Shown: positions 39,096 through 59,008 of the stretch, in pieces
Layout of the letters: each line of letters starts with the position of its first letter
Numbering within the stretch: the stretch's first letter is position 1
Virus record (IMG/VR): IMGVR_UViG_3300023079_000004
Coordinates: 1 to 62,375 of that record
Reading direction: 5' to 3' (one strand)
Source: a virus
Lineage: Duplodnaviria > Caudoviricetes
DNA length: 62,375 nt
Translations under genes and position numbers: made by a program
Notes under the pieces: model-generated
Told to the model about the DNA's origin: nothing
The model's database searches: none
The model's input: the letters and a program-made list of their open reading frames with translations, nothing else

Positions 39096-39099
39096 GGTC

Positions 39100-42595: not shown

Positions 42596-42652
42596 GGTCC
42601 GGCAGAACGAGGGACCTGGGGAGCTCGCTGAGGGCGTCGGCGAGCTCCTCGG

Positions 42653-42751
42653 GGCGGGTTAGCTCAGTTGGCAGAGCACCGGGTATGGCTTCTATTCCTT
42701 CCCCGTAGTAGGAGTCACCGGAGGTCGCGGGTTCAAGTCCTGCACCCGCCA
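42653..42751 (+). ncRNA. tRNA-like RNA 1 with extended anticodon arm (no assignable anticodon)
   Basis: Acceptor GGCGGGT/ACCCGCC; D arm GCTC-AGTTGGCA-GAGC; variable AGGTC; T arm GCGGG-TTCAAGT-CCTGC; 26 extra nt in the anticodon arm. Confidence 0.8.
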
Positions 42752-42945
42752 CGTAACAGCAGGAGACAGGTAAGGGAGCGATGGGGCTGCTGGCCCTGCC
42801 TCCGTGACTGTTGCCGGGGCACCCACGGTCTGGTGCGTTGCAGGGGGAGCGGGCTTCGTCAGGAGGCTCCTTCCACGGGTCTGGGGCACACCGCCCCTCC
42901 CGCTTCCCCTGCTCCCTCATCCACACACGCAGAGAGAAGGCTGCC

Positions 42946-44097
42946 GTGTCGGAGCTCCACGTCCCTATGATTCGCACGAGCGAACGGGGAGACTTCAAGC
43001 ATTGCCAGTGGTATTGGTGGCACCACTGGCAGAACGGCCTCACCACACCTCGCGTCCCGACGTGGAGCTGGTTCGGCACGGCGTGGCACTACGCGCAAGA
43101 GAAGCGTTACCCGCCGGGGACCAAGCGTGGCTCTCTCGCTGACGTCATCGACGCCTTCGTCGAGAAGTGTGACGAAGAGCACCGGATGGTGTACGAGAAG
43201 GGTGGGGACCTCGACCAGGAAGAGGCCCACGACGGCATCGAGCTCGGCAAGGCCATGCTGGTCGCCTATGTCAAGCACTGGGGCGAAGACAAGCAGTGGC
43301 AAGTCATCCACACGGAACAGCCCTTCCAGATTGACGTTCGGCACCCTACCAGCGGTCGACTGATCGCCGTGTACTGCGGGACGTGGGATCTGTTCGTCTG
43401 GGACAGATTCGACCGGGTGTACCGCCTCGTGGACCACAAGACCCGCGCCAGCTTCCTGCGGGACTGGTCGCACTTCGAGGTGCTGGACCAGCCGGGCTCG
43501 TATCTGTGGGTGGCCCCCGAGGTGCTGGTGCACCTGGGACTCCTGAACAAGAAGGACGCCATCGACGGCATCACGTTCAACATGGCGCGCAAGGCCATGC
43601 CACAGGCGGTGGCCGAAGACGGCATCAAGTACACACAGCCCAAGAAGAGCGACTTCGTTGCGGCCATCACACAGGCTACCGGTCTCGTAGAGAGCGGGGG
43701 CAAGCCGTTTGACAAGCACACGCTGAAGAGCCTGGCCCTGCAAGCGAAGACCCTCGGCCTGGACGTCAAGGGCAAGCCGTACACCACTCAGCCCGCACCG
43801 AGCTTCGCGCGCTACACCACGCGACGCGGCCCCGGAGAGCGCGTGCGGCAGGCTCAGAAGGTGATTGGCGAGGCCCGACACATGGAAGCCGTGCGTCGAG
43901 GCAAGCTCCCTCTCATGAAGAACACGGGCGAGCACTGTAGCCGGTGTCCACTGTTCGACTTCTGCATGCTGGACGAGCAGGACAAGGACCGCGCGCAGGA
44001 GTACGCGGCTACTATGCTGGTCAAGCGGGATCCGTACGCCGACCATCGCGAAGCTATGGAGACCAAGGGTGGCATCATCGTGGAGGGAGACGAGTGA
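42946..44097 (+). CDS. PD-(D/E)XK Cas4/RecB-like exonuclease
   Basis: SE..DFKHC, FGTAWH, TEQPF, GTWD, VDHKT and C..C....C. Confidence 0.88.
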   Translation: MSELHVPMIRTSERGDFKHCQWYWWHHWQNGLTTPRVPTWSWFGTAWHYAQEKRYPPGTKRGSLADVIDAFVEKCDEEHRMVYEKGGDLDQEEAHDGIELGKAMLVAYVKHWGEDKQWQVIHTEQPFQIDVRHPTSGRLIAVYCGTWDLFVWDRFDRVYRLVDHKTRASFLRDWSHFEVLDQPGSYLWVAPEVLVHLGLLNKKDAIDGITFNMARKAMPQAVAEDGIKYTQPKKSDFVAAITQATGLVESGGKPFDKHTLKSLALQAKTLGLDVKGKPYTTQPAPSFARYTTRRGPGERVRQAQKVIGEARHMEAVRRGKLPLMKNTGEHCSRCPLFDFCMLDEQDKDRAQEYAATMLVKRDPYADHREAMETKGGIIVEGDE

Positions 44098-44945
44098 CGG
44101 TTCGACAAGCACGGCAGAGGGCATCCTCGGGGGCGAGCGCCAGACCCTCCCCGGCCGTCCGCAGGCCGCAGGCCATCACCAGCTTGCAGGACCTCGAAGC
44201 GCCCCGGTACCGCAAGTGGTGCGTGTACGGGGAGAGCGGCAGCGACGTCGGTAAGACGGTGCTGGCCGGTACGGCACCTAAGGCGCTGTTCCTCAGCACG
44301 GACGTTGAGGGCACCGAGAGCGCGCGCATGATGGGGAGCGCAGCAGACGAGTTGCGCATCAACACGTTCCAGGAGTTCTGCGACGCAGTGGACTGGCTCT
44401 CCCGGGGCGGTGGGCACGCCGAGTACGAGTGGGTCATGCCGGACACTGTCACCGAGCTCGAGGAGCTCTGCTGGCAGGCGCAGCTCGTGAGCGACGACGT
44501 CAAGCGGGCCAGTAAGTACCAGCCGAACAAGGCGGACTACCCGCTCGTCTGGGCCAAGCTCTACGAGCAACTGAGCATCCTGGGCCGAACACCGGTGAAC
44601 GTGCTCTACATCGCGCACACCATGCGCATCGACCGCGAAGATGAAGACGCGGAGGAGACGGTCACGCTGGCCATGCCTGCGCTCGGCAGCCGTAAGCGTG
44701 GCGACCTCGCCGCCAAGTTCATCGCTCAGTTGGGCATGGTGGGCTACATGCGCAAGGTGCGAGACGACGAGGGCAAGGTGGCTCGCCAACTGCTCACGGA
44801 GAGCACCAACCGATGGGTTGCCCGCGACCGTTCCACTAAGCTTGGGAGCGGCATGACGAACCCCACAATGCCCGCACTGCTGGCTAAGGTTAGCGGGGCC
44901 AGCACCACGACAACCCGACCGGCGCGACGTCGGCGGGCGAGTTAG
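44094..44945 (+). CDS. AAA_24 / Sak4-like ATPase
   Basis: YGESGSDVGKT, DTVTEL, YIAH and ARDR. Confidence 0.85.
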   Translation: MTVRQARQRASSGASARPSPAVRRPQAITSLQDLEAPRYRKWCVYGESGSDVGKTVLAGTAPKALFLSTDVEGTESARMMGSAADELRINTFQEFCDAVDWLSRGGGHAEYEWVMPDTVTELEELCWQAQLVSDDVKRASKYQPNKADYPLVWAKLYEQLSILGRTPVNVLYIAHTMRIDREDEDAEETVTLAMPALGSRKRGDLAAKFIAQLGMVGYMRKVRDDEGKVARQLLTESTNRWVARDRSTKLGSGMTNPTMPALLAKVSGASTTTTRPARRRRAS

Positions 44946-44953
44946 GAGAAGAA

Positions 44954-45823
44954 GTGGCTAAGAGGACCGTCAGTTTCAGCGACTACAAGGAACCGACCTG
45001 GGAGGAGTACACCGGGGAGGACCCGCCGCCCAACAAGTGGTTCACCGGCCGCGTCAACCGGGCGCGCTACGACAAGGACGACGACCAGGTCGTCTTCATC
45101 GTGGAGATCACCGAGGGCGACTACAAGGGCTGGGGCCGCGGCTGGTACGCCCCGTTCGAGGGCAACCTCAAGTGGAAGATGCACGAGATCCTGCGTGCGC
45201 TCCAGGGCGGCAAGACGACCGACGTGAGCCTCGACTGGGAGAACGACACGGCCGTCGCCAACTTCCTCAAGAAGTGCAAGGCCATCCGGTTCCGCACCGA
45301 GGAGTACAACGACCGCATCTCCATCCGGAAGGTCAGCCCGCTGCTGACGGCCGTGCCGGGCGGCACCGACGCGCCAAAGGTGGCACCGGAACCCGAGCTC
45401 GACGATCCGGAGGACGGCGGCGACGAGCCGTACACCGAGGAGGAGCTCTCCGACATGGGGGTCGGCGAACTCGAGGAGATCTTGGTCGAGGAGTTCGAGG
45501 TGCCGAAGGGCGACCTCCCCGCCAAGCCCCGCCGAGACCCGAAGGGCGAGAAGTACAAGGCGGCCCTCATCGAGGAGATCCTCGCGGAGCAGGAGGGTGA
45601 CGAGGGTTCCGAGGACGGCGAGGCCGACGAAGAGGAGCCCGAGGGCGAGGGTGACGAGTTCGACACCGGCTTCGACGAAGACGAGGCCGACGACGAAGAG
45701 GGCGAGCCGGAGCCGGAGCCGGAACCCGAACCGGCACCGCGTGCCCGACGGAGCCGTGCCGCGAAGGCGGCCCCGGCACCCGCGAAAGCGGCCAGCACCA
45801 CGACGCGACGGCGTCGGGGCTAG
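44954..45823 (+). CDS. Putative ssDNA-binding protein with long acidic tail
   Basis: Follows the exonuclease and AAA genes; N-terminal OB-like (EITEGDYKG) region; D/E-rich then basic tail. Confidence 0.6.
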   Translation: MAKRTVSFSDYKEPTWEEYTGEDPPPNKWFTGRVNRARYDKDDDQVVFIVEITEGDYKGWGRGWYAPFEGNLKWKMHEILRALQGGKTTDVSLDWENDTAVANFLKKCKAIRFRTEEYNDRISIRKVSPLLTAVPGGTDAPKVAPEPELDDPEDGGDEPYTEEELSDMGVGELEEILVEEFEVPKGDLPAKPRRDPKGEKYKAALIEEILAEQEGDEGSEDGEADEEEPEGEGDEFDTGFDEDEADDEEGEPEPEPEPEPAPRARRSRAAKAAPAPAKAASTTTRRRRG

Positions 45824-45829
45824 CTGGTC

Positions 45830-46000
45830 GGGGATGCGACCAATGGAGCCCCCTCGGAAGGCTGGGGAGGTCGCATCCCTTGTGATGGCGAGGGAGAGCC
45901 AGTACGCCGAACGGTCGCTAGACCCGGGTCCCTAGTAAGGACAGTACGTCTCCCGAACCACGTGCGGAGGGGTCGATCGAGGAAACTCGGTCGGCCCCTC
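45830..46000 (+). ncRNA. Candidate structured non-coding element
   Basis: GGGATGCGACC/GGTCGCATCCC stem with inner hairpin; GAGGGGTCGATCGAG-GAAA-CTCGGTCGGCCCCTC hairpin. Confidence 0.4.
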
Positions 46001-46185
46001 TTGCGATGATGGTAACGCCCCTCCGGCCACCGCTGGCACAGGCCCCGGCATCGGGCCTCAGATGACTCCTGCGGGGAGAGAGGGCGGGGAGGGTGTCCGG
46101 CTTAGGGTTGCCGCTCAGAACTCGTCTGCGTCGGTGCCAGCCACTCAGTACCGGTTCTCCCCCGCCAGCCCCACTACCCCCGGCG

Positions 46186-46247
46186 CAAAAAAGACCGCCT
46201 CATGCGCACGCGTATACGCGTACGTGCGCGCGAGGCCTCCTGTTTTG
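46186..46247. repeat. Imperfect palindrome with alternating purine-pyrimidine core, copy 2 (candidate origin)
   Basis: CAAAAAAG..GCCTCATGCGCACGCGTATACGCGTACGTGCGCGCGAGGC..CTGTTTTG upstream of the primase-helicase. Confidence 0.7.
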
Positions 46248-46459
46248 TCCGGCCGGGCCGAGCCACCGGCCAGAGAGTGACGACACAACGACTGGTACAA
46301 ACCAGCGGATCAACAGGACGCAAAGAAAGACCACCGGCATGTACCGGCGTGCGGTACCGTTATCGGCGCTGGCCACCAACGCCCGGCTAGCAACGCTTAC
46401 GCTCGAACTCATTCTCAAGAGAGAAGAGAGGTCGGTCGTACGTAGGTAAAGGGAGGAGG

Positions 46460-46717
46460 GTGATGGCGAACGACACCCTTTCGCCGGTTGGCTTCGAGCG
46501 GCCGTTCATCAAGACGAACGTGTCCCACGAAGCTCGGTTTGCGATGGCGTGCTTGCTCGGCCGACATGGCGGGGAGCCGGGAGACATGGTCCGGCATCTG
46601 CTGTGGCTCGGGCTGGAGCAGATGGGCTGGTCGGAAGAGCGGATCATCAGGGAGTACGCCGAGTACCGCGTGCGGTGCTTACGGAGCGACGAGACAAATG
46701 CATACGGCAAGGAGTAG
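46460..46717 (+). CDS. Putative RHH-like DNA-binding protein
   Basis: GGAGGAGG RBS; FIKTNVS strand plus two helices. Confidence 0.55.
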   Translation: MMANDTLSPVGFERPFIKTNVSHEARFAMACLLGRHGGEPGDMVRHLLWLGLEQMGWSEERIIREYAEYRVRCLRSDETNAYGKE

Positions 46718-46720
46718 GGG

Positions 46721-49579
46721 ATGGGTCGTCGGGGCGAAGGGTGGCGGGGCAAGTTCACCCAATGGCTCGTGCGGGAAGAGAAGGACGGGGAGACCCGCGC
46801 GTACTGCCCCTTGCACGAGGACCCGCTCAGCAGCAAGACGCCGAGCGCCAGCTTCAACTTCAAGACCGGCAAGTTCATGTGCTTCAGCCGGTGCGGCGGG
46901 TACGCCGTCAGTCAGGTCTGGCAACTCCTCCAGGAGGGCACCGAGCCCGAGCGCAAGGTAGAGCAGCGTCAGCCGAAGGACGAGGTGGCGGAGGCTCGCC
47001 GCAAGCGGCGCGCACGGGCCGAGGGGCGCACGGTGGCTCTGCCGACGGAGGACGAAGTTGCCGAGTGGCGGGACCGCCTCCAGGGCAAGCAAGACCTCCT
47101 GCGAGAGATCCTGGTCAAGCGTGGCCTCCAACGCTCCACCTTGCGCCGGTACGACATCGGCTGGGACGGAGAACGACTCGTCATCCCGGTCCGTGACGAG
47201 GCGGGGCAACTGGTGAACCTTCGCCGGTACGGCATGGGTCTCCGGGCTAACAAGATGGTCAACTGGCCCGGGTACGGCGATGCCACGCTCTACGGGCTGG
47301 ACGCCCTGACGCAGCGCCGCGTCATCCTGTCCGAAGGTGAGATGGACAAGCTGATCCTTCGGCAGTACCGCTTCCCGAGCCTGACAGCTACGGCCGGAGC
47401 GGGCACGTGGTTCAGCGAGTGGAACCGCTACTTTGCAGGCAAGATCGTCTACATCTGCTATGACGTCGACGAGGGTGGAGAGAACGGCGCGCGCAAGGTG
47501 GCCAACGAGCTGCGCGTTGCGGCTCAGGCGGTCCACATCATCAAGCTACCGTTGCAGGCCAAGGGTAGCGACGTCACGGACTACTTCGTGCACCAGGGGC
47601 ACGGACGCCAGAGCTTCATCGATCTGATGAAAGCCACACCGCCGTACCGGGAGCGCAAGCTCAGCCGGGAACGCGCGCGGACGGCTACCGAGGTGCCCGA
47701 GGTGCGCATGCGCAACAGCTTCGACCCGGGGCTCCTGGACAAGCCCATCAGCATGGTGGCAACCATCTCCGGTCGTAGTGCCACCCCGACTGCCCTCCCT
47801 CGCAGGATCGAGCTGACCTGTGGGATGGACTGGCAGAAGACGAAGTGCGCCAAATGTCCGATGGAGAACCTGTGGGGCGGTCAGCACAAGCACGAGGTCC
47901 CGGCTGACGACCGGCTGGTCCTCAAGATGATGGACATGCCGGACGACAAGCGAGGCGCTGAAGTCCTGCGCGCACTGGAGATCCCGAGCACCTGCCCGAA
48001 GGTGGAGTTCACTTTGCACGACCAGTGGCGCATCGACGAGCTGGCCGTGGTACCGAACATCGATGACCCGGACGAGGGTGAAGGCGAGCAGGTGCTCCGG
48101 CGCATCTTCAACGTGACGGAGCAGGGGAAGCTCACGCCGGTCAACACCACCGCTCGGCTCACCGGGGTCAGCACGGCCAACCCGAAGAACGGGCAGGTGG
48201 TCTTCCAGAGCTGGGACATGCAAGAGACGAAGACCAGCCTGGACCGCTTCGTCATGACGGAGGAGCTGCGTGGAGCACTGGAGGATGTCTTCCAGCCGGG
48301 ACCAGCACAGACGCCAATGGATAAGCTCACCGAGCTGGCTCGGGACCTGGCTGCCAATGTCACACACATTTACGGACGACCCGAACTGCACATTGCATAC
48401 GACCTCGTCTGGCATTCTGTCCTGGACTTTCCCTTCCGGGGTAGTCGTCTCGGCAAGGGTTGGCTCGAGCTACTGGTCATGGGAGACACCAGGACGGGCA
48501 AGAGTGAAGCGGCAGAGCGACTGCGGCACCACTATCAGTGTGGTGTACTCAAGAGCTGCGAAGGGGCTACCCTCGCGGGACTTGTCGGTGGCGCTCAACA
48601 GATTGGCAATAGCTGGGTCATCACCTGGGGCACCATCCCGCTCCAAGACCGGCGTCTTGTCATCCTTGACGAGGTGTCCGGCATGCAGGACAAGAACATC
48701 ATCGAACAGATGAGCGCGGTACGCAGCTCTGGCCGGGCACAGGTGAGCAAGATCGTCAGCCAGGAGACGTTCGCCCGAACGCGAACCATCTGGCTGGGCA
48801 ACCCGGTGGACGGCCGCAGCATTCGGGAGCACAACAACGGAGCCATCGACGCCATCCAGAAACTCATCCCGAACCCCGAAGACATCGCGCGGTTCGACTT
48901 GGCGATGGTGGCCGCGCAAGCCGACGTCAACAGCACCGTCATCAATGCCGCCACCCCACCCCGCGCTCCTCGCAGGGCTACGCAGGCGCTGAGTAGCGCG
49001 CTGGTGACGTGGGCGTGGAGTCGGACGGCCGAGGAGGTGCTGTGGGGCAAGGGCGTCGAGCGCCGAGTGCTGACTGCGGCGGAGGAGCTGGGGAGGCGGT
49101 ACATTCCCGACCCACCACTCATCCAGCCGGAGAACGTGCGCGTGAAGCTGGCTCGCCTCGCGGTGGCCATTGCCGCGCGGCTGTTCAGCCATGACGGCAC
49201 CGGGCAGAAGGTCCTCGTGCAAGAGGAGCACGTCCGGGCTGCCGTTGAGTTCCTGGACGATCTGTACGGCCGTCGGTGGTTCGGGTATGCCGACCACAGT
49301 CGCAAGGAGCTCCGGGCACGGGCCGCCGCCGAGGAAAACGTCAACGCCTGCAAGGCGATGCTCGTCAGCCACGACGGCATCCTGGACACCTTGAAGACGG
49401 TAATCAACGACACGCAATTCCGAGCCCGCGACTTCGAGGAGTTCGGCGGGATGGACAAAGACATGGCCGGTCAGGCGGTGTCTTCCCTGCTGACCATGGG
49501 TATGGTTCGTAGGCGTGCCAAGGGGTACATCAACATGATGCCGGAGCTGATCGGCATCGTTAGGGATCTGGAGAGCTGA
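46721..49579 (+). CDS. Primase-helicase: CHC2 Zn finger + TOPRIM + MCM-like AAA+
   Basis: CPLHED..C...C; SEGEMD and YDVD; GDTRTGKS, ILDE and RFDL. Confidence 0.9.
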   Translation: MGRRGEGWRGKFTQWLVREEKDGETRAYCPLHEDPLSSKTPSASFNFKTGKFMCFSRCGGYAVSQVWQLLQEGTEPERKVEQRQPKDEVAEARRKRRARAEGRTVALPTEDEVAEWRDRLQGKQDLLREILVKRGLQRSTLRRYDIGWDGERLVIPVRDEAGQLVNLRRYGMGLRANKMVNWPGYGDATLYGLDALTQRRVILSEGEMDKLILRQYRFPSLTATAGAGTWFSEWNRYFAGKIVYICYDVDEGGENGARKVANELRVAAQAVHIIKLPLQAKGSDVTDYFVHQGHGRQSFIDLMKATPPYRERKLSRERARTATEVPEVRMRNSFDPGLLDKPISMVATISGRSATPTALPRRIELTCGMDWQKTKCAKCPMENLWGGQHKHEVPADDRLVLKMMDMPDDKRGAEVLRALEIPSTCPKVEFTLHDQWRIDELAVVPNIDDPDEGEGEQVLRRIFNVTEQGKLTPVNTTARLTGVSTANPKNGQVVFQSWDMQETKTSLDRFVMTEELRGALEDVFQPGPAQTPMDKLTELARDLAANVTHIYGRPELHIAYDLVWHSVLDFPFRGSRLGKGWLELLVMGDTRTGKSEAAERLRHHYQCGVLKSCEGATLAGLVGGAQQIGNSWVITWGTIPLQDRRLVILDEVSGMQDKNIIEQMSAVRSSGRAQVSKIVSQETFARTRTIWLGNPVDGRSIREHNNGAIDAIQKLIPNPEDIARFDLAMVAAQADVNSTVINAATPPRAPRRATQALSSALVTWAWSRTAEEVLWGKGVERRVLTAAEELGRRYIPDPPLIQPENVRVKLARLAVAIAARLFSHDGTGQKVLVQEEHVRAAVEFLDDLYGRRWFGYADHSRKELRARAAAEENVNACKAMLVSHDGILDTLKTVINDTQFRARDFEEFGGMDKDMAGQAVSSLLTMGMVRRRAKGYINMMPELIGIVRDLES

Positions 49580-52515: not shown

Positions 52516-53153
52516 GCCCCTCCCTAGCAACCGAAGTGGGTCGACGTACGCTGCTGAACCGGCTGTACGCCGAGTACGCCGACGACCCCGCCTTCGCGCA
52601 CATGCTCCCGCACACCAACGGCGTCGTGCCCGGTGACGGCCCCACACGCCCTCGGCTGGTGTTCGTGGGCGAAGCACCGGGTAGCCACGAGGACAAGCAG
52701 CGCAAGCCGTTCGTCGGTGCCAGCGGTCGGTTCCTCGACAAGCTCCTGGCCTCCGTCAAGCTCTCCCGGGAGGAGATCTTCATCACCAACACGGTGAAGA
52801 TTCGCCCGGTGGTCCTGCGCGGGAAGGTGGGGTCGGGCAATCGACCCCCGACCGAGGAGGAGAAGCTGGCGAGCATCCCGTACTTGCGCCGAGAGATGCG
52901 CCTTCTGGGGTACCCGCCTATCGTCGTACTCGGCAAGCACGCCAAGGGTGCCATGGCCCGGCTCCCGGAGCGGGGTTACGATCTCGGAGACCCGGCGCTC
53001 GCCATGAAGCTGGGCGAGTGGAACACGGTGCTCGGGGTACCGATGCTGCCGCTGCATCACCCGGCATACGGCATCTACCAGCAGGCCAACCAACCCATGA
53101 TGTTCGACATGTTCAAGAAGGTCCTCGAAGCCCCGGGAGGGCGGTTGCGATGA
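52512..53153 (+). CDS. Uracil-DNA glycosylase, family 4-like
   Basis: VGEAPG..ED....PFVG.SG, ITN.VK.RP, NR.PT and HPAY. Confidence 0.9.
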   Translation: MSPSLATEVGRRTLLNRLYAEYADDPAFAHMLPHTNGVVPGDGPTRPRLVFVGEAPGSHEDKQRKPFVGASGRFLDKLLASVKLSREEIFITNTVKIRPVVLRGKVGSGNRPPTEEEKLASIPYLRREMRLLGYPPIVVLGKHAKGAMARLPERGYDLGDPALAMKLGEWNTVLGVPMLPLHHPAYGIYQQANQPMMFDMFKKVLEAPGGRLR

Positions 53154-53647
53154 AGCTCAGCGACGGAACGCTGCGCAAGCTGGTCGAGCGGGGAGACATC
53201 GAGTTCGTGCCGGGGTTGACCGACCAGCAATGGCAACCCTGCTCCGTGGACCTACGCCTCGGTACGAGCTTCCAGTCGCCCGGCAAGCCTCGGCTCATCA
53301 CCAGCTCCTACAAACTGCACCCCGGGGAGTTCGTGCTGGGGTGTACCCAGGAGCGGGTACGCCTCGGACGGGCATTCATGGGGCAGGTGGAGGGCCGGAG
53401 TACCTGGGCGCGACGCGGTCTTCAGGTGCATGCCGCCGGGCTGGTAGACCCCGGCTTCGACGGGGAGCTGACGCTGGAGTTGGTGAATCTGGGCTCCTTC
53501 CCCCTCGCCCTCTCCGCAGGAGAGCGCATCTGCCAGATGACCATCGAGCGGCTGGACTGGCCTGCGGTCCGTCCGTATGGTCACGCGGCTCTCGGCTCGA
53601 AGTACCAGCACCAGATCGGCGCTACGTCCGCCTCCGAGCACGAGTAG
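53150..53647 (+). CDS. dcd: dCTP deaminase
   Basis: QP.SVDLRLG, GRSTWARRGL, VDPGFDGELTLEL, RICQ and SKYQ.Q. Confidence 0.93.
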   Translation: MKLSDGTLRKLVERGDIEFVPGLTDQQWQPCSVDLRLGTSFQSPGKPRLITSSYKLHPGEFVLGCTQERVRLGRAFMGQVEGRSTWARRGLQVHAAGLVDPGFDGELTLELVNLGSFPLALSAGERICQMTIERLDWPAVRPYGHAALGSKYQHQIGATSASEHE

Positions 53648-53652
53648 GGGAC

Positions 53653-53850
53653 ATGCCTCTCATTGCCAGGAAGAAGATGCTGGCACTTCTCCCGCCGTGC
53701 ACCTGTGGGCGTGGGGCTTATCCGCCCGACGATGAGTTCGGCCGCACGTGGTGGTATGCCCTGTCGAGCTCGTGTGCTCGATGCTGGCCGGAGGCAGACT
53801 ACTGGCTGCGCATCGGCGTACTGATCCGGGAGGGCACCCTGTGGCTCTGA
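53653..53850 (+). CDS. Small Cys-rich protein
   Basis: CTCG...CARC; fills the gap. Confidence 0.5.
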   Translation: MPLIARKKMLALLPPCTCGRGAYPPDDEFGRTWWYALSSSCARCWPEADYWLRIGVLIREGTLWL

Positions 53851-56800
53851 CGCACGTGAATCTGCACGGGCACACGACCTTCAGCCCGGGGGACGGGTAC
53901 GCCATGCCGGACGCCCACGTGAAGGCGGCGGCCGAGCTGGGGCAACCGGCTATCGCCTTCACCGAGCATGGGAACGTGAGCAGCCACGTGAAGGGTGAGC
54001 GTGCTGCCGATGCGGCTGGGATGAAGTTCATCCCCGGGTGCGAACTGTACTGCGACACCGGTGATGCACGTGGCCAGACCAAGCATCATCTCACGGTGCT
54101 GGCCGCCAGTCCGCGCGGACTGGGCAATCTGTACTCGGTGGTCACGAAGAGCTGGGACAACTTCCACTTCAAGCCGACGGCAACCGGAGAGATGCTGGCC
54201 GACCACCACGAGGATCTCATCGTGCTTTCCGGGTGTCTGGGTGGGCGGTTGGCCACAGCGGTCATGGGAGGGAAGGGTGAAGAGGACAAGGTTCAGGCGG
54301 ACTTACGGGCGGGTGCGCGCGTCGCTGCACAGTTCCGCGAGGTGTTCGGTGACCGATACTATCTGGAGGTGCAGGCGCACCCACTCCTCGATCGTCAGCG
54401 AGCGTATAACCGCGCAGTTGCGCGCATCGGGCAGCGACTGGGAATACCTCTGGTCGCAACGGGTGATGTGCATTACCCGACGGAGCGGGACCAGGACATC
54501 TACCCAATTCTGCACGCCATCGATCGAGGCGGCTCCCGCAACACGGTCGAGGCGCAGTCGCAGAGCTGGGAGTACGGGCTGGTCCTGGCGCACCAGAGCA
54601 GTGACACCATGTATCGGGGACTCCTGGACACCGGCCTCACTCGTCGGGAGGCACGAGGGGCTCTGTCCCGAACGCTGGAGATAGCCGACCGGGTAGACGT
54701 CCGGCTCCCCAAGCTGAAGGACCTCGAGTACCCCGACGAGCGCCCGAGCGCCGACGTCATGATGGAGTGGCTGCGGCGTGGCTGGCGGTATCGCGGGCTG
54801 CACACGCTGAACCGGGAGGACCGGCGTCGGTACCTGGACCGTCTGCGGTACGAGACGAAGCTCATCGTGGACAAGGGTTTCGTGGACTACTTCCTCGTCA
54901 TCGCCGACATGGTGGTCTATAGCAAGACGAACGGGATCCCGGTGGGTCCGGCGCGTGGTTCGGCGGCGGCGAGCCTCGTGTGCTGGCTGTTGCGCATCAC
55001 CGAAGTCAACCCGATGCTGTTCCCCAACCTCATCTTCGAAAGGTTCATCGACATCAACCGGCACGACCTGCCGGACGTGGACCTGGACTTCGACGACGAG
55101 CTGCGCTACAAGGTGCGCGAGTACCTCGTGGAGAAGTACGGCGCGGAGCGGGTGGGCAACATCGGAACCTTCACGATGTACCGGGGCAAGAACAGTCTCG
55201 AAGAAGTGGCGAAGGTGTTCCGCATCCCGCTCTCTGCGGTGGAGGAAGTGAAGGGCGGGTTGCTGGAGCGCTCGTCCGGCGACCTCCGGTACGGCCAGAC
55301 CATCGAGGACAGCCGCGCGCTCTTCCCTAAGGTCGATGCGGTGTTCAAGCGGTACCCGGACCTTCGGCACGCGCAACGCCTCGAGGGCAACCTGAAAGGC
55401 TTCAGCGTGCACGCGGCGGGGCTGGTCGTGGCCAACGGTGCCCTGACCGAGGCCCTGGCGGTATACGTGCGATACAAGCCGGACAAGAAAAAGCCGCGCG
55501 GTGAGAAAATCGGCGAGGCCCTGAGCATCGACAAGTACGACGCCGAGTACCTGAACGTGCTCAAGATCGATGCGCTGGGCTTGAAGACGATGGGCCTCAT
55601 TCGCCGAGCTCTCGAGATGATCGGCATGAGCCTGGAAGAGCTGTATGCGGTACCGCTGGACGATGAGAAGGTGTACGAGGCTTTTCGCGCCAACCGTGTC
55701 ATCGGCGTCTTTCAGTTCGACGGCCGCGCGATGCGTAGCGTCAACCGGGAGGTCAAGCCTGATACCTTCGCGGAGATATGTGACATCAACGCGCTGGCCC
55801 GCCCCGGTCCGCTGCACTCTGGCGCTGCGGCTGAGTACATCATGGCGAAGCACGGCAAGAAGCCCGTCGAGAAGCTTCACCCGGTAGTCTCGGAGATCAC
55901 GGCGCACACCAACGGCCAGATCGTGTACCAGGAGCAGATCCTCCGGGTGGTCCGGGAGCTCGGCGGCTTCACGTGGGAAGAGGCCGCGCACGTTCGGAAG
56001 CTGATCAGCAAGAAGCAGGGCGAGCAGGCGTTCAACCGGTTGCAGAAGCTCTTCATGGAGGGTTCGGCGGCCCGCGGGGTGCGGGAAGCTGTGGCCGCGA
56101 AGGTGTGGAAGCAGCTCGTGACGGCAGGCGCGTACGCCTTCAACGCGGCGCACTGCGTCAGCTATGGGATGCTGGCCTACTGGACGATGTGGCTCAAGGT
56201 GAACCACCCGCTGGCCTTCTACTGCGCGGCACTCATCAAGTACAAGGGGGACAAGAAGAACGACAAGACGCTGGACATCCTGAAGGAGGCCACCGCCGCC
56301 GGGATCAAGATCGTGCCGCCGGACCCGGAGCTGAGCGACTTGTCCTGGCGGGTGTGCGCTGATGCTCTCGTGGCTGGCTTCACCCAGGTCCGGGGCATCG
56401 GCGAGAGCACTGCCCGCGCGATGCTAGCGTACCGCGAGGCGTTGCCGCCCAACACGGTGGGGAGCTGGGACACCTACCTCAATGTCAAGGGTATCGGACC
56501 CAAGACGATGGAGACCGTGAAGGCGTTCTGCGCGGAGCGGGATCCCTTTGGCATCAACGTGTTGCGGGAGCGGCTCGACAAGATGCGTTGGTGGCTCGGC
56601 GAGAACGGCGAGCGGTACGGCCTCCCCTACCCCTCCTCTCGCAGCGAGGACGTGCCCTACGAAGCCATTCGTGGCGAGCACACATGGGTGGGGAAGGTGG
56701 TGCACCGCAACCTGAAGGACATCTACGAGCTGCATCGCTCGCGGACTGGCGAGGAGCTTGACCCGAAGAAGGTCAAGGAGCCGCAGTACGTCAACTACGT

Positions 56801-56999
56801 CGTCATCACCGGGGAAGACGAGACGGGGCCGCTGGTCATCACGGTCCACCGGTACGGTGGTCTGTACGAGAAGTACAAGGAGGACATCTGGGACATCGAC
56901 CCGGACCGGGATCTGTTGCTGGTCCGGGGATACAAGCGCACGGAGTACCGTCGCGCCCTGTATGCCACCGAGCTACACGTCTTGACCGTGGAGGAATGA
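53841..56999 (+). CDS. dnaE: DNA polymerase III alpha subunit (DnaE-like) with PHP domain
   Basis: LHGHT.FS..DG, TEHG, DVHY; GPARGSAAASLV; PDVDLD; KIDALGL; RPGP; YAFNAAH. Confidence 0.97.
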   Translation: MALTHVNLHGHTTFSPGDGYAMPDAHVKAAAELGQPAIAFTEHGNVSSHVKGERAADAAGMKFIPGCELYCDTGDARGQTKHHLTVLAASPRGLGNLYSVVTKSWDNFHFKPTATGEMLADHHEDLIVLSGCLGGRLATAVMGGKGEEDKVQADLRAGARVAAQFREVFGDRYYLEVQAHPLLDRQRAYNRAVARIGQRLGIPLVATGDVHYPTERDQDIYPILHAIDRGGSRNTVEAQSQSWEYGLVLAHQSSDTMYRGLLDTGLTRREARGALSRTLEIADRVDVRLPKLKDLEYPDERPSADVMMEWLRRGWRYRGLHTLNREDRRRYLDRLRYETKLIVDKGFVDYFLVIADMVVYSKTNGIPVGPARGSAAASLVCWLLRITEVNPMLFPNLIFERFIDINRHDLPDVDLDFDDELRYKVREYLVEKYGAERVGNIGTFTMYRGKNSLEEVAKVFRIPLSAVEEVKGGLLERSSGDLRYGQTIEDSRALFPKVDAVFKRYPDLRHAQRLEGNLKGFSVHAAGLVVANGALTEALAVYVRYKPDKKKPRGEKIGEALSIDKYDAEYLNVLKIDALGLKTMGLIRRALEMIGMSLEELYAVPLDDEKVYEAFRANRVIGVFQFDGRAMRSVNREVKPDTFAEICDINALARPGPLHSGAAAEYIMAKHGKKPVEKLHPVVSEITAHTNGQIVYQEQILRVVRELGGFTWEEAAHVRKLISKKQGEQAFNRLQKLFMEGSAARGVREAVAAKVWKQLVTAGAYAFNAAHCVSYGMLAYWTMWLKVNHPLAFYCAALIKYKGDKKNDKTLDILKEATAAGIKIVPPDPELSDLSWRVCADALVAGFTQVRGIGESTARAMLAYREALPPNTVGSWDTYLNVKGIGPKTMETVKAFCAERDPFGINVLRERLDKMRWWLGENGERYGLPYPSSRSEDVPYEAIRGEHTWVGKVVHRNLKDIYELHRSRTGEELDPKKVKEPQYVNYVVITGEDETGPLVITVHRYGGLYEKYKEDIWDIDPDRDLLLVRGYKRTEYRRALYATELHVLTVEE

Positions 57000-57736
57000 T
57001 GAACCTGTACGACCAGAACCCGAACGTGCCGCAGGAGACGAGCCCGCTGTGGTTCGACCTTTCGGCCACCATGTACGACAACCTCAAGACCCTCGACCGC
57101 TGGATGGCCTACTACAGCGGCCGGTTGCCGCGTGGCATCGTCATCGACGAGGCCAGCATCCTGACCCGTACCGAGACCAACATGCAGAACGCCGCCGCGT
57201 ATCTGCGAGAGGCGGGGTGGGAGGAGTTCAACACCGCGACGGACCTCGTCTTCACCAATCCGTTCGGCACCCGGTACACCGTGGAGTACCGCTTCTTCAG
57301 CAACCCCCACGTCTTCTTCCGGCTGGAGTTGATGCGCCTGACGGGGGGCTTCAGTCCGTTGCACCGAGCCTTGCTCGAAGCTCCCCGCTTGAACTCCATG
57401 AGCTGGCCGGTGCCGCACCTGAGCTTCAAGCCGCAGCGCCGTGCACTGGGTGGTCTCCTTCCCGGCGAGAAGGAGAGGCCGCACCGGATGCAGACGTGGC
57501 GCGGTGCGTACGGTGAAGCGGTGCAGTATCTCCGGGACAACGCCTGCATTCACGCGCAGAGCTGCCAGAGCACCTACGGCCAGTTCGGGTACTTCCTCGG
57601 CAACGACGCCGCCCGGCAGGTCTACATCAAGCCGCGCATCAACTTGCGGGACGGCGAGGTCATGCACAGCATGTGCACCGTCGACAATAACGATGGGTGC
57701 CTCGTCGACCACAGCGTCACCCGGAGGCCCGTGTGA
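56996..57736 (+). CDS. Hypothetical enzyme, possible VOC/glyoxalase-like fold
   Basis: IDE.., RLELM and HLSFK spacing is reminiscent of VOC metal ligands; weak. Confidence 0.5.
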   Translation: MMNLYDQNPNVPQETSPLWFDLSATMYDNLKTLDRWMAYYSGRLPRGIVIDEASILTRTETNMQNAAAYLREAGWEEFNTATDLVFTNPFGTRYTVEYRFFSNPHVFFRLELMRLTGGFSPLHRALLEAPRLNSMSWPVPHLSFKPQRRALGGLLPGEKERPHRMQTWRGAYGEAVQYLRDNACIHAQSCQSTYGQFGYFLGNDAARQVYIKPRINLRDGEVMHSMCTVDNNDGCLVDHSVTRRPV

Positions 57737-58410
57737 AGAAGCGGGTGCTGGTCGTGGGGGCACGGCCGAACAGTCTCGGAGAAGCAGTTGCGAACGTGGC
57801 CAGTCGGCGGGGCTATCAGGTGGTCACGGCCGGTATCTCCGGCGAGGATGTCCGCCTGAACCTGCTCTCGAGCGTGACGGAGATCGAGGTGCTGCGCGGC
57901 ATCCTCCAGGGCATCGATCCGCACCACGTCGTGTGCACCGTCGGCATCAATCAGCCGGAGGCACACGAGGACGCGGACGTGAGCTGGTGGATGCGTGCGC
58001 ACTTCGAGGCGAACGTCATCGCGCCGCTCCGCCTGTTGGACGCGTGGATGCCGGTGGCTAGCATGGGGCACTACGTGGCCGTGAGCAGCAACAGCGCGCG
58101 CATCCCGCGCACCCGGAGCATGGCGTACTGCGCGTCGAAGGCGGCCCTGAGCATGGCGTTGCGGGTGCGAGCCCGGGAGCTCGGGGGTGCGCCGGTGGTG
58201 TACGGCTACGAGCCCGGCCTGCTGCTCGGTACTCCGATGACAGAGAAGACGGCCGCTGGCTTCACGGGACCGCTGACGCGCATGAAGGTGCCGGAGCTGG
58301 CGCGCGGTATCGTCGTCGACGATCTCGCTGAGCTGATGGTCCAGAACCTCGGGCACTCGGGCCTCGCCCTCAACGGCACCCTGATTCCCTACGACGCCGA
58401 TGAGCTGTAA
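57733..58410 (+). CDS. Short-chain dehydrogenase/reductase
   Basis: VLVVGA...SLG, AN, VSS and YCASK. Confidence 0.88.
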   Translation: MKKRVLVVGARPNSLGEAVANVASRRGYQVVTAGISGEDVRLNLLSSVTEIEVLRGILQGIDPHHVVCTVGINQPEAHEDADVSWWMRAHFEANVIAPLRLLDAWMPVASMGHYVAVSSNSARIPRTRSMAYCASKAALSMALRVRARELGGAPVVYGYEPGLLLGTPMTEKTAAGFTGPLTRMKVPELARGIVVDDLAELMVQNLGHSGLALNGTLIPYDADEL

Positions 58411-58462
58411 CTGGAGTCGTTCGCCGGTTGCTTTCTGTGGTACGACCCGGTTAGATAGGGGC

Positions 58463-58639
58463 ATGAGCAAAGAGAAGACGCACTGGCTCACCTATCTGGG
58501 GAAGCGTCGGCCGGAGACCCTGGCCGACAACCGGCAGTGGGGCGAACCGGGGACCGGGCCGTACCGGAAGCCCCAGCCGCACGCCAACCCAAAGGGCGTT
58601 CAGGGACATGCATTGGGGAGGGGTAACCGTGGGCAGTGA
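58463..58639 (+). CDS. Hypothetical basic protein
   Basis: AGGGG RBS; fills the gap. Confidence 0.45.
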   Translation: MSKEKTHWLTYLGKRRPETLADNRQWGEPGTGPYRKPQPHANPKGVQGHALGRGNRGQ

Positions 58640-58820
58640 CTGGCTCGAGGGGCCGCGTAGTCCGATGGACTTCGGCCGGGGGAGCTCCGGCGACTCGGGT
58701 ACGAGCGGCGGCGGCAACAGCAAGTTCGCTGCGTTCGGCATGCTGGCGTTCATCGCCGGTCCGGCCGGTCTGGTCCTCGGACTGGCGGCCTACCTGGCAC
58801 ACGGGTACGGCCTCATCTAG
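58629..58820 (+). CDS. Gly-rich small membrane protein
   Basis: GGAGG RBS; C-terminal TM. Confidence 0.6.
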   Translation: MGSDWLEGPRSPMDFGRGSSGDSGTSGGGNSKFAAFGMLAFIAGPAGLVLGLAAYLAHGYGLI

Positions 58821-58850
58821 CACCATGACAGCCGGGAAAGACCGGCACCT

Positions 58851-58970
58851 GCAAGGGATGCGCTCAGTTTCGGGTGATAGCTGACCCCGGCGGCAGAGCG
58901 GACCGATGGCCCCGGGGAACAGCACCCCGGGGTACAGGCCAGATCGCGGGTTCGAGTCCCGCCCCTTGCA
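58851..58970 (+). ncRNA. tRNA-like RNA 2 with extended anticodon arm and D-loop insertion
   Basis: Acceptor GCAAGGG/CCCTTGC; D stem CGCTC/GAGCG around AGTT[hairpin]CGGCA; variable AGATC; T arm GCGGG-TTCGAGT-CCCGC. Confidence 0.72.
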
Positions 58971-58994
58971 CGCAGCACGGAGGAGAAGGCCGTG

Positions 58995-59008
58995 CACTAC
59001 CCGGGAGG
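58995..59008 (+). promoter_or_regulatory. Leader/SD motif copy
   Basis: CACTACCCGGGAGG 6 nt before GTG 59015. Confidence 0.7.

What the first reader, a model, noticed from the sequence alone, without database searches (positions are those of the whole stretch)
42653..58970. Two tRNA-like RNAs share the same abnormal long anticodon arm: candidate new ncRNA class
Seen: 42653-42751 and 58851-58970 each keep a perfect 7-bp acceptor stem, a D stem (GCTC/GAGC) with AGTT..GGCA loop residues, a 5-nt variable loop (AGGTC/AGATC), a canonical T arm and discriminator A. Neither has a normal anticodon arm. In both, a 4-bp basal stem (one mismatch in RNA 2) is followed by a short 5' bulge (GTA / GA) and an extra helix of about 11 bp that starts TGGC and closes with CA (TGGCTTCTATT/AGTAGGAGTCA, loop CCTTCCCCGT; TGGCCCCGGGG/CCCCGGGGTACA, loop AACAGCA). 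RNA 2 also has a hairpin inserted in the D loop. Each is preceded by a small hairpin. Acceptor and arm sequences differ while pairing is kept, which argues for selected structure rather than decay. Inference: RNase P-processed tRNA scaffolds that cannot decode normally. Possible roles are decoys for anticodon nucleases or synthetases, ribosome/Rel modulators, antisense carriers, or intron-containing tRNAs (no splicing enzyme or RtcB is seen here).
Basis: partly seen in the sequence, partly recalled or inferred. Interest (0 to 1): 0.9.

Follow-up and report, generated by a model that had tools for sequence, protein, structure and literature searches.

The report
Anticodon-less tRNA-like elements between phage genes
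Two intergenic RNAs in this uncultivated high-GC phage keep the whole tRNA body but have no usable anticodon, and they belong to a conserved family in related phages that most likely marks cutting sites in long phage messages rather than decoding codons.

Summary
RNA1 (42653-42751) scores 53.6 bits on Rfam tRNA, with 35 nt where 9 are expected. RNA2 (58851-58970) is missed by Rfam and by default ARAGORN. A covariance model built from relatives, without RNA2, finds it at exactly these ends (32.8 bits, E 1.3e-5).

Eight related IMG/VR phage records carry 19 more such elements at four conserved intergenic sites, all on the gene strand. What is conserved:
- the acceptor stem and T arm
- usually the D arm and a 5-nt variable loop
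- discriminator A (19 of 21)
- a following CG (20 of 21)
- a hairpin ending 0-6 nt upstream (18 of 21)

The anticodon arm is hypervariable even between positional orthologues. It can be absent, capped by a GAAA tetraloop, or a long unrelated hairpin. The shared TGGC...CA arm is therefore not the defining feature.

Best reading (confidence 0.45, inferred): tRNA-shaped RNase P / RNase Z (or RNase E) processing signals in polycistronic phage mRNA, like plant mitochondrial t-elements. Intron-bearing tRNAs and anticodon-nuclease decoys are disfavoured. No RNA data exist.

The parts
42074..42595 (+). Upstream gene of site A (173 aa, unknown function). Its C-terminus ...K(S/A)PF* is conserved in relatives.
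   Evidence: ORF list. No Pfam hit; phrog_20596, unknown function. The same C-terminal ending is read in relatives.
42616..42652 (+). GC-rich hairpin directly upstream of RNA1 (core GGAGCTCGC 42620-42628 pairing with GCGAGCTCC 42640-42648). Proposed 3'-protective hairpin of the upstream message after the cut.
   Evidence: Fold of the 40 nt upstream: -30.2 kcal/mol, lowest percentile of the window background. Sequence.
42653..42751 (+). tRNA-like element RNA1 (site A), 99 nt. Full tRNA core, no anticodon loop.
   Evidence: Rfam tRNA 53.6 bits; R1 83.1 bits; fold; pairing table. ARAGORN's tRNA-Arg(tct) call needs a forced poor fold.
42683..42717 (+). 35-nt insert that replaces the anticodon stem end and loop of RNA1: GTA bulge, 11-bp helix with 3 G-U pairs, 10-nt loop CCTTCCCCGT.
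   Evidence: The G-U pairs hold only on the + strand RNA.
42752..42753 (+). Conserved CG directly after discriminator A of RNA1.
   Evidence: CG follows the discriminator in 20 of 21 family members.
42809..42838 (+). Conserved leader motif GTTGCCGGGGCACCCACGGTCTGGTGC between RNA1 and the nuclease gene. It is non-coding, because the true nuclease start lies further downstream.
   Evidence: Near-identical in L001, L002, L014 and L061. In L002 it lies about 300 nt before the nuclease ORF and before a second tRNA-like element. One exact copy in the window.
42946..44097 (+). PD-(D/E)XK (Cas4/RecB-like) exonuclease gene downstream of site A. Probable start is the GTG at about 42946, before ...VPMIRTSER.
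   Evidence: Pfam PDDEXK_1; translation; relatives' N-terminus MAVPLIRTSER; annotated Cas4 exonuclease in isolated phages.
58608..58820 (+). Upstream small ORF of site B (70 aa, no family).
58831..58846 (+). Small hairpin GCCGG-GAAAGA-CCGGC, ending 4 nt before RNA2.
58851..58970 (+). tRNA-like element RNA2 (site B), 120 nt. D-loop hairpin insert 58870-58889. Long anticodon arm 58901-58940 with 7-nt loop AACAGCA that lacks U33.
   Evidence: R1 32.8 bits, E 1.3e-5, with exact ends; RNA2 was not in the model's seed. Fold; pairing. Not found by Rfam or default ARAGORN.
58971..58972 (+). Conserved CG after discriminator A of RNA2.
58975..58995 (+). Hairpin GCACGG...CCGTGC, starting 4 nt after the RNA2 trailer CG. 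Also present in site B orthologues G001d and G002b. Possible 5' protective hairpin of the downstream message.
   Evidence: downstream folds are W_RNA2 -14.7, G001d -20.0 and G002b -15.6 kcal/mol.
58996..59008 (+). Leader motif ACTACCCGGGAGG (contains the ribosome-binding site), 7 nt before the GTG at 59016.
   Evidence: 7 exact + strand copies in the window against 2.3 expected at up to 2 mismatches. Each lies 5-7 nt before a start codon.
59016..59128 (+). 37-aa hydrophobic small ORF downstream of RNA2, followed by the ThyX-like gene (59143-60438).
31864..31887 (+). Site C in the window. Only the hairpin is present and there is no tRNA-like element. Relatives G001, G002, G006 and G007 have hairpin plus tRNA-like element at the same intergenic site.
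   Evidence: No R1 hit here.

Best explanation
RNA1 and RNA2 are members of a family of anticodon-less, tRNA-shaped cis elements embedded in the polycistronic early and replication transcripts of a clade of uncultivated actinobacteriophage-like siphoviruses.

Proposed mechanism (inferred, not shown):
1. The element folds co-transcriptionally into a tRNA L-shape, with acceptor stem, T arm and a D/T elbow.
2. Host RNase P cuts at its 5' end. The upstream message is left ending in the GC hairpin plus about 3 nt, which should resist 3' exonucleases.
3. RNase Z, or actinobacterial RNase E (which cuts 5' of C), cuts after discriminator A at the conserved A|CG. This frees the downstream message with a short, unstructured, ribosome-binding-site-bearing leader.
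4. The excised tRNA-like piece is a by-product. It may receive CCA.

The anticodon arm is not read by any of these enzymes, so it drifts, shrinks, expands or disappears.
For: Shown:
- Both window elements belong to one family. R1, built without RNA2, retrieves it with exact ends.
- There are 19 further members in 8 of 18 related IMG/VR records.
- They sit at four syntenic intergenic sites, always on the gene strand.
- The conserved parts are those read by RNase P, RNase Z and the CCA-adding enzyme. The acceptor is 7/7 paired in 14 of 21 and at least 5/7 in all. The T stem is 5/5 paired in 16 of 21. The T loop is TTCRANT. The discriminator is A in 19 of 21.
- Covariation is strong. 95.8% of stem cells pair against 66.5% in shuffles, 13 of 16 pairs change on both sides, and slid partners pair at 40-50% (the alignment is fitted to the model).
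- G-U pairs fit only the sense RNA.
- The anticodon arm is hypervariable among positional orthologues. Site B has 120-nt RNA2 against 85-nt G001d and G002b with unrelated arms. Site D has a GAAA-capped 5-bp arm in G001c against none in G007c. Site A arms are unrelated to each other.
- The 40 nt upstream are more structured than the window background (mean -14.4 against -10.8 kcal/mol, Mann-Whitney p 0.0012). The hairpin ends 0-6 nt before the 5' end in 18 of 21, and exactly 3 nt before it in 9. The 40 nt downstream are less structured (-8.2).
- CG follows the discriminator in 20 of 21, then a pyrimidine in 17 of 21.
- At site C the window keeps only the hairpin. More distant relatives have hairpins without the element at site A. 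The element therefore looks like an add-on to a pre-existing hairpin.

From papers:
- Plant mitochondrial t-elements are non-canonical tRNA-like structures carrying the GGTTCRANYCC motif. Their ends coincide with mRNA ends, and they are cut by RNase P/Z (PMC1920247, passages read). They are CCA-tailed but not aminoacylated (bioRxiv 10.1101/2024.09.09.612099, passages read).
- RNase P cleaves phage M3 and C4 RNAs and operon mRNAs (PMC11143913, passages read).
- Mycobacterial RNase E cuts RN|CNU, immediately 5' of cytidine (PMC10641625, passages read).
Against: - No transcript data exist. All five listed holders of the sequence are DNA metagenome runs, so no cleavage, no RNA ends and no CCA addition are shown.
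- A hairpin only about 3 nt before the cut could hinder the RNase P protein's contact with the single-stranded leader (from general knowledge, not tested).
- Conservation goes beyond what RNase P needs. A minihelix would suffice, yet 12 of 21 keep a GCTC/GAGC D stem, and most keep GG in the D loop and an AGRNN variable loop.
- Long arms are kept as stable helices rather than simply lost.
- The conserved CG has no proven reader.
- The elements are dispensable at some sites. The window lacks them at sites C and D.
- The host is only inferred to be an actinobacterium, from protein hits of at most 47% identity to actinophages.
Confidence: 0.45

Rival explanations
1. The excised tRNA-like RNAs are themselves the product. 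They would be stable small RNAs in which the tRNA body acts as a processing and stability scaffold. The RNA would then work as a sponge or decoy for host tRNA-binding factors (CCA-adding enzyme, modification enzymes, EF-Tu, a defence sensor of tRNA shape), or would carry a fast-evolving payload hairpin in place of the anticodon arm.
For: The full tRNA core is conserved, including D arm, variable loop and elbow nucleotides. This is more than a cleavage signal needs. Long arms are kept as stable helices with G-U pairs. Rapid turnover of the arm between close relatives is the pattern expected of arms-race loci.
Against: Some members have no arm or only a GAAA-capped stub (G007b, G007c, G001c), so no payload is required. 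Arm sequences share nothing across orthologues. There are only 2-4 copies per genome. No partner protein is evident among 40 window proteins scanned in Pfam. No expression data exist.
Confidence: 0.22
2. They are chargeable tRNA mimics. Anticodon-independent synthetases (for example LeuRS, which relies on A73 and the core) would aminoacylate them after CCA addition, for a use outside normal decoding.
For: A73 in 19 of 21 and an intact tertiary core. That LeuRS, AlaRS and SerRS do not read the anticodon is recalled knowledge, not from a call.
Against: No G3-U70; position 3:70 is C-G, A-U or U-A. No long variable arm. Several members lack a normal D arm (G002a, G002b, G001d). Plant t-elements with similar anatomy are CCA-tailed but not charged (bioRxiv 10.1101/2024.09.09.612099, passages read). 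No aminoacyl-tRNA-using enzyme was seen in the proteins scanned.
Confidence: 0.07
3. They are decaying tRNA pseudogenes, remnants of once-functional phage tRNAs with no present function.
For: Two site A members are of normal tRNA size (70-71 nt). They have 4-bp anticodon stems and 7-nt loops resembling Lys(CUU) and Glu(UUC), but with A or C where U33 should be (G005a, G006a). This suggests descent from real tRNAs. The elements are absent at some sites in some genomes.
Against: Acceptor and T stems stay paired through many changes on both sides, while their sequences diverge completely. The 3' CG and the upstream hairpin spacing are conserved across non-homologous sites. Decay would not spare exactly these features in 21 copies.
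Confidence: 0.08
4. They are functional decoding tRNAs. Either the insert is an intron removed before use, or the tRNAs have extended anticodon arms used for recoding.
For: ARAGORN calls RNA1 tRNA-Arg(tct). In intron mode it of 21 elements. G006c has a UUCAGGU loop with U33 and a purine at position 37.
Against: - The ARAGORN fold of RNA1 is forced, with a mispaired anticodon stem and a false long variable arm.
- Intron-mode isotypes differ among orthologues: Gly, Glu, Ala, SeC, Leu, Pro.
- Inserts of 8-47 nt are far too short for group I introns, and no intron family matched.
- Orthologues have no anticodon loop at all.
- An arm longer by about 11 bp cannot place an anticodon in the decoding centre while the acceptor end reaches the peptidyl-transferase centre (structural reasoning, not a call).
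- No splicing or ligase enzyme was seen in the proteins scanned.
Confidence: 0.03
5. The elements act at the level of transcription or DNA: part of a terminator or antiterminator with the upstream hairpin, a replication or recombination signal in the replication module, or a former integration-site remnant.
For: They directly follow hairpins that could be U-less terminators. Sites A and B lie in the replication module.
Against: G-U pairs make the fold strand-specific to the sense RNA. The canonical T loop and tertiary-core nucleotides are features of RNA recognition. No integrase was seen in the proteins scanned. Full cloverleaves, not 3' tRNA halves, are present. The consensus scan found no promoter-like site in 29000-46000, and none of its nine terminator-like sites lies at site A.
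Confidence: 0.05

Closest known systems
Plant mitochondrial t-elements (tRNA-like mRNA processing signals)
   Same: Both are non-canonical cloverleaves that keep the T-arm motif GGTTCRANYCC and the acceptor stem, lack a working anticodon, and lie next to protein genes inside long transcripts. t-elements are cut by RNase P and RNase Z to define mRNA ends, and are CCA-tailed but not charged (PMC1920247 and bioRxiv 10.1101/2024.09.09.612099, passages read). All window and relative elements carry GGTTCRANTCC-type T arms.
   Different: The elements here are in a phage of a high-GC bacterium, not an organelle. They form a tight module with an upstream hairpin ending about 3 nt before the 5' end and a conserved 3' A|CG. 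Arms are often expanded into long hairpins. There is no experimental end mapping here.
MALAT1 3' end module (triple helix plus mascRNA tRNA-like)
   Same: A tRNA-like structure without a normal anticodon function sits just downstream of a protective RNA structure. RNase P cleavage creates the stable 3' end of the upstream RNA, and the tRNA-like piece is released (abstract start of PMC8457004 in the listing; the rest is recalled).
   Different: MALAT1 is a eukaryotic nuclear lncRNA and its protector is a triple helix, not a hairpin. The similarity is one of design only, with no homology.
Non-tRNA RNase P substrates of phages (phi80 M3 RNA, P1/P7 C4 antisense RNA precursor, T4 tRNA-cluster small RNAs) and RNase P cuts in operon mRNAs
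   Same: These are phage or operon transcripts that present an acceptor-stem/T-arm-like shape to host RNase P (PMC11143913, passages read).
   Different: Those substrates are single cases and mostly not full cloverleaves. The elements here are a multi-copy, multi-genome family with a complete tRNA core and covarying stems at conserved intergenic sites.
Canonical phage-encoded tRNAs
   Same: Acceptor, D and T arms, variable loop and discriminator are all tRNA-like. RNA1 passes the Rfam tRNA gathering score.
   Different: None of the 21 elements combines a normal-length 5-bp anticodon stem with a 7-nt loop carrying U33 and R37. The one loop with both, in G006c, sits on an extended arm. These phage records show no canonical tRNA among their Rfam tRNA matches.
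Engineered tRNA scaffolds for recombinant RNA (inserts replacing the anticodon arm)
   Same: A foreign hairpin is grafted in place of the anticodon stem-loop of an otherwise intact tRNA, as in RNA1, RNA2, G003a, G008a and G009a. The scaffold gives processing and stability (recalled, no call).
   Different: That is a laboratory design, not a natural family. Here the inserts are not conserved, and some members carry none.

Membership tests
Canonical decoding tRNA (Rfam RF00005) | Cloverleaf with 7-bp acceptor stem, D arm, T arm with TPsiC-type loop, and a discriminator base | tested here: met
   RNA1 scores 53.6 bits against a gathering score of 29. RNA2 is below threshold in Rfam but is matched by R1.
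Canonical decoding tRNA (Rfam RF00005) | 5-bp anticodon stem with a 7-nt loop carrying U33, an anticodon and a purine at position 37, at normal arm length | tested here: not met
   RNA1 has a 4-bp base, a bulge, an 11-bp helix and a 10-nt loop. RNA2 has a long helix with loop AACAGCA and no U33. None of the 21 family members meets it at normal arm length.
Intron-containing tRNA (bacterial group I intron in the anticodon loop) | Self-splicing group I intron (hundreds of nt, P1-P9 core) inserted in the anticodon loop of an otherwise complete anticodon arm | tested here: not met
   The inserts are about 26-35 nt simple hairpins. No intron family matched at the gathering threshold or at E<=10. No residual anticodon loop remains after any consistent excision, and isotypes are inconsistent across orthologues.
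Intron-containing tRNA (archaeal/eukaryal bulge-helix-bulge type) | 3-nt bulge, 4-bp helix, 3-nt bulge at the exon-intron junctions, plus a splicing endonuclease and ligase in the system | tested here: not met
   Only a 5' bulge (GTA or GA) is present, with no matching 3' bulge. No endonuclease or RtcB-type ligase was seen among 40 window proteins in Pfam. The relatives are phages of Actinobacteria.
t-element-like tRNA-shaped mRNA processing signal | Non-canonical tRNA-like fold retaining the acceptor stem and the conserved T-arm motif GGTTCRANYCC | tested here: met
   RNA1 has GGTTCAAGTCC and RNA2 has GGTTCGAGTCC. All 21 members carry a TTCRANT loop on a GG/CC-closed stem.
t-element-like tRNA-shaped mRNA processing signal | Lies within a transcript next to protein-coding genes, on the same strand | tested here: met
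   All 21 elements are intergenic and co-oriented with the flanking genes, at four syntenic sites. Co-transcription itself is inferred.
t-element-like tRNA-shaped mRNA processing signal | Mapped mRNA 5'/3' ends coincide with the ends of the element; cleavage by RNase P and RNase Z | not testable with these tools
   No RNA run holds the sequence. Needs end mapping or in vitro cleavage.
tmRNA tRNA-like domain | Acceptor stem with G3-U70 alanine identity, T arm, reduced D loop, joined to an mRNA-like tag reading frame | tested here: not met
   ARAGORN finds no tmRNA and there is no Rfam tmRNA match. Pair 3:70 is C-G in RNA1 and A-U in RNA2.

The most novel reading that the evidence does not exclude
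A previously undescribed class of phage tRNA mimics. The mimic keeps the complete tRNA body, which would ensure excision, CCA addition and stability through host tRNA enzymes. The anticodon arm has been turned into a freely exchangeable module. The released RNAs would act in trans on a host tRNA-shape reader (a defence sensor, the CCA-adding enzyme, an anticodon-independent synthetase or EF-Tu), and the hairpin-N3-tRNA-like-A|CG unit would be a dedicated phage expression cassette for them.
Probability: 0.2. Interest if true: 0.8.

Novelty: new variant of a known kind. Interest (0 to 1): 0.6.

Why it matters
If the elements are RNase P/Z (or RNase E) punctuation signals, phages of high-GC bacteria would be using the mitochondrial-style tRNA punctuation principle to split and stabilise polycistronic messages. 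I found no report of this for phages. The searches were made, which cover open-access full text only.

The family is also a natural experiment on which parts of a tRNA are needed for recognition by processing enzymes: acceptor, T arm, elbow, A73 and a 3' CG are kept, while the anticodon arm is free to vary. It is a natural counterpart of engineered tRNA scaffolds as well.

Practically, it warns annotators that ARAGORN and Rfam "tRNA" calls in such phages (tRNA-Arg, tRNA-Ala, tRNA-Lys, tRNA-Glu here) are not decoding tRNAs. They should not be used for codon-usage or host inference.

Tried and rejected
- DNA similarity of both loci to 50,697 GenBank phage records found no match.
- Rfam at E<=10 gave only noise besides RNA1.
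- ARAGORN at lowered thresholds on RNA2 gave two mutually overlapping, poorly paired calls, which I rejected.
- Two weak R1 hits were dropped before the 21-element table: G002 8013-8087 (20.1 bits) and G003 667-731 (14.1 bits). They lack a convincing acceptor or T-arm fold. Two other weak hits were kept: G002d (18.4 bits) and G006d (19.2 bits). Both carry the TTCGANT loop, A73 and CG, and lie at syntenic sites. Their 5' halves are uncertain.
- With default filters, R1 reported RNA2 from 58893 instead of 58851. Alignment A4 therefore misplaces its 5' strand and truncates G003b, and the counts include these two rows as they stand.
- R1 found nothing in two isolated actinophages with the same helicase-Cas4-RecA synteny (Rhodococcus phage MacGully and Microbacterium phage JDawG). 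It also found nothing in the ten related IMG/VR records without a match: the fragment G004 and the more distant G010-G018.
- The metagenome scan added no new complete site A locus. L061 starts just after the element, and L064 holds a 5'-cut copy.
- The leader-motif scan of IMG/VR found multi-copy matches only in relatives already known.
- K-turn reading of the shared bulge/TGGC...CA: I saw no tandem G-A motif. This was judged by eye only.
- PHROGs gave no function for the flanking small genes.
- No RNA holder was listed for the sequence.
- Laying four DNA metagenome runs gave near-identical phage contigs spanning both elements. It also gave short pieces of other organisms' ordinary tRNAs (Phe- and Lys-like anticodon arms) aligned to the tRNA-like halves. 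Only 40 of 273 differences were shown, so nothing can be said about variation inside the elements.
- Supplementary files of papers were not consulted. Those of PMC10690425 (10,006 candidate viral structured RNAs from IMG/VR) might already list this family.

Full report
**What the window is.** The window is a complete 62,375-bp IMG/VR virus record with 61-70% G+C. Nearly all genes lie on the + strand.
- Pfam identifies terminase, portal and a siphovirus tail protein.
- It also identifies a replication module: SNF2 helicase, PD-(D/E)XK (Cas4-like) exonuclease, AAA_24 RecA-like ATPase, Toprim/MCM primase-helicase, uracil-DNA glycosylase, DnaE-like Pol III alpha and ThyX.
- The best protein matches in GenBank phages are to phages of Streptomyces, Arthrobacter, Microbacterium, Rhodococcus and Gordonia, at 47% identity or less.
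- The DNA of both loci matches no GenBank phage.
- I therefore read it as an uncultivated actinobacteriophage-like siphovirus. The host is inferred, not shown.

**Checking the observation.**
- Rfam tRNA matches RNA1 at 53.6 bits but skips 35 nt where the model has 9.
- ARAGORN's tRNA-Arg(tct) call for RNA1 rests on a forced fold, with a mispaired anticodon stem and a false long variable arm.
- RNA2 is invisible to Rfam even at E<=10 and to default ARAGORN.
- I built covariance model R1 from ten related elements, with RNA2 left out and only the acceptor, D and T stems annotated.
The next hit in the window scores 13.4 bits, E 0.57.
- The window therefore has two such elements, and they are homologous in kind.

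**Relatives.**
- An alignment of the downstream exonuclease (A1) retrieved 18 related IMG/VR loci.
- Rfam tRNA found 13 matches in these whole records. R1 found 21 hits at E<=0.05 in 8 of 18 records.
- There were none in a small fragment (G004), nor in the nine most distant records (G010-G018, exonuclease identity 49% or less).
- I inspected the hits and dropped two weak ones.
- I tabulated 21 elements: 2 from the window and 19 from relatives. Two of these are weak, with uncertain 5' halves.

**What is conserved.**
- The acceptor stem is 7/7 paired in 14 of 21, 6/7 in 6 and 5/7 in 1, with at least a dozen different sequences.
- The T stem is 5/5 paired in 16 of 21, and the T loop is always TTCRANT.
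- The discriminator is A in 19 of 21.
- The next two bases are CG in 20 of 21, followed by a pyrimidine in 17 of 21.
- Twelve of 21 keep the GCTC/GAGC D stem. In the sequences most show GG in the D loop, even where the loop carries a 20-70-nt insert (RNA2, G006c, G003b). Most also show an AGRNN variable loop.
- On the model-fitted alignment A4 (20 rows), 95.8% of stem cells pair against 66.5% in column shuffles (0 of 500 shuffles reach it). Thirteen of 16 pairs show changes on both sides. Sliding the 3' partner by 1-3 columns drops pairing to 40-50%.
- Caveats: the alignment is fitted to the structure, and two rows are partly misaligned.
- The G-U pairs fit only the sense-strand RNA.

**What is not conserved: the anticodon arm.** Flank comparison by tblastx puts the elements at four syntenic intergenic sites.
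- *Site A*, before the exonuclease: RNA1, G001a, G002a, G003a and G003b, G005a, G006a and G006c, G007a, G008a, G009a.
- *Site B*, before a small membrane ORF and ThyX: RNA2, G001d, G002b, G006d.
- *Site C*, window 31851-31907: G001b, G002d, G006b, G007b.
- *Site D*, window 35318-35537: G001c, G007c.
- Within a site the arms are unrelated. At site B there is 120-nt RNA2 against 85-nt G001d and G002b, which also have different acceptor sequences. At site D, G001c has a 5-bp stem capped by GAAA and G007c has no arm.
- At site A the arm region is 35 nt in RNA1, about 21 nt in G001a and about 40 nt in G003a, with nothing in common.
- G005a and G006a are of normal tRNA size (70-71 nt), but have 4-bp stems and 7-nt loops with A or C where U33 should be.
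- No member combines a normal-length arm with a U33/R37 loop.
- Default ARAGORN of 21. With introns allowed it of 21, with isotypes that disagree among orthologues.
- The TGGC...CA likeness of the two window arms recurs in no relative.

**Context module.**
- The 40 nt upstream of the elements fold more stably than 1,685 background windows (mean -14.4 against -10.8 kcal/mol, Mann-Whitney p 0.0012).
- The hairpin ends 0-6 nt before position 1 in 18 of 21, and exactly 3 nt before it in 9.
- The 40 nt downstream are less structured than background (-8.2), except for a hairpin at site B.
- In the window, site C holds only the hairpin, directly followed by the ribosome-binding site. Site D has no element.
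- In more distant relatives site A has hairpins but no tRNA-like element, after the same ...APF* gene end.
- The element thus looks like an addition placed just 3' of a pre-existing hairpin, gained or lost between close relatives.
- RNA2 is followed by ACTACCCGGGAGG. This leader motif occurs seven times exactly on the + strand, each 5-7 nt before a start codon. Most other copies follow hairpins and AT-richer stretches rather than tRNA-like elements.

**Mechanism.** The conserved parts are the ones that the tRNA end-processing enzymes read: acceptor stem, T arm, D/T elbow and A73. The part only translation needs is free to vary.
- Together with sense orientation inside operon-like gene arrays, the tight upstream hairpin and the open downstream leader, the best-supported reading is a cis-acting processing module.
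- RNase P would cut at position 1, leaving the upstream message with a terminal hairpin.
- RNase Z, or actinobacterial RNase E, would cut at A|CG and release the downstream message. RNase E cuts immediately 5' of cytidine with a preference for RN|CNU (PMC10641625, passages read).
- This is how plant mitochondrial t-elements are thought to work. They are also CCA-tailed yet uncharged (PMC1920247; bioRxiv 10.1101/2024.09.09.612099; passages read).
- RNase P is known to cut phage M3 and C4 RNAs and operon mRNAs (PMC11143913, passages read).
- Every enzymatic step here is inferred. No RNA run holds this sequence.
- The DNA runs that were laid show only that near-identical phages occur in leaf-litter and soil metagenomes.

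**Points that the processing model does not explain.**
- The whole tRNA core is preserved, not just a minihelix.
- Long arms are maintained as good helices.
- The conserved CG has no proven reader.
- These keep alive the rival that the excised RNA is itself functional, as a scaffolded small RNA, a sponge or decoy for a tRNA-shape reader, or a chargeable mimic.
- The pseudogene, intron, decoding and DNA-level readings are each contradicted by specific results (see rivals).

**Novelty.**
- My full-text searches found t-elements only in organelles. They found no report of anticodon-less tRNA-like punctuation elements in phages.
- A large survey of IMG/VR structured RNAs mentions tRNA-like candidates (PMC10690425, passages read). 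Its supplements, which I could not open, might include this family.
- I rate the finding a new variant of a known kind. It is real and under selection, and its function is inferred.

Noticed in passing
window 31163, 33735, 34030, 35519, 38032, 39083, 58996 (+ strand): The 13-nt motif ACTACCCGGGAGG occurs seven times exactly, each 5-7 nt before a start codon. It is a start-associated leader containing the ribosome-binding site and a CCCGGG palindrome. It is multi-copy only in the close relatives G001, G002, G006 and G007.
   Followed up: partly
window 42809-42838: GTTGCCGGGGCACCCACGGTCTGGTGC is nearly identical in five related phages but lies in the untranslated leader of the exonuclease gene. 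There is one copy per genome. It could form a 5-bp hairpin (GCACC/GGTGC) or be a protein-binding site. Function unknown.
   Followed up: partly
L061 about 263-620 and L068 about 265-620: In two metagenome relatives the exonuclease reading frame continues after ...IRTSER(N/G)DFK into an HNH/endonuclease VII-like sequence (CGIC...H-x-H...C-x-x-C). This suggests a homing-endonuclease insertion or an intron/intein in the Cas4-like gene.
   Followed up: no
window 10223-12766: An 847-aa protein in the head-morphogenesis region ends in an ADP-ribosyltransferase exoenzyme domain (Pfam PF03496, E 1.7e-21).
   Followed up: no
window 59143-60438: The ThyX-like protein carries an N-terminal extension of about 165 aa before the Thy1 domain. 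A 37-aa hydrophobic ORF (59016-59128) sits between RNA2 and this gene.
   Followed up: no
L052 1501-1628 (G006c) and L002 484-635 (G003b): Some relatives carry a second, tandem tRNA-like element before the exonuclease. It has a 49-70-nt insert in the D loop. Its long arm contains ACCUCCUU or ACCUCCG, which resembles the anti-Shine-Dalgarno end of 16S rRNA, paired to a Shine-Dalgarno-like strand.
   Followed up: no
window 42653-42678 and 58944-58961: In the laid DNA runs, short contigs of other organisms' ordinary tRNAs align to the tRNA-like halves and then diverge exactly at the anticodon arm. Their continuations read as Phe(GAA)- and Lys(CUU)-type anticodon arms. RNA1's body resembles these tRNA types.
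   Followed up: no
window 46721-49579: The replicative primase-helicase combines Toprim with an MCM-type P-loop domain rather than DnaB.
   Followed up: no
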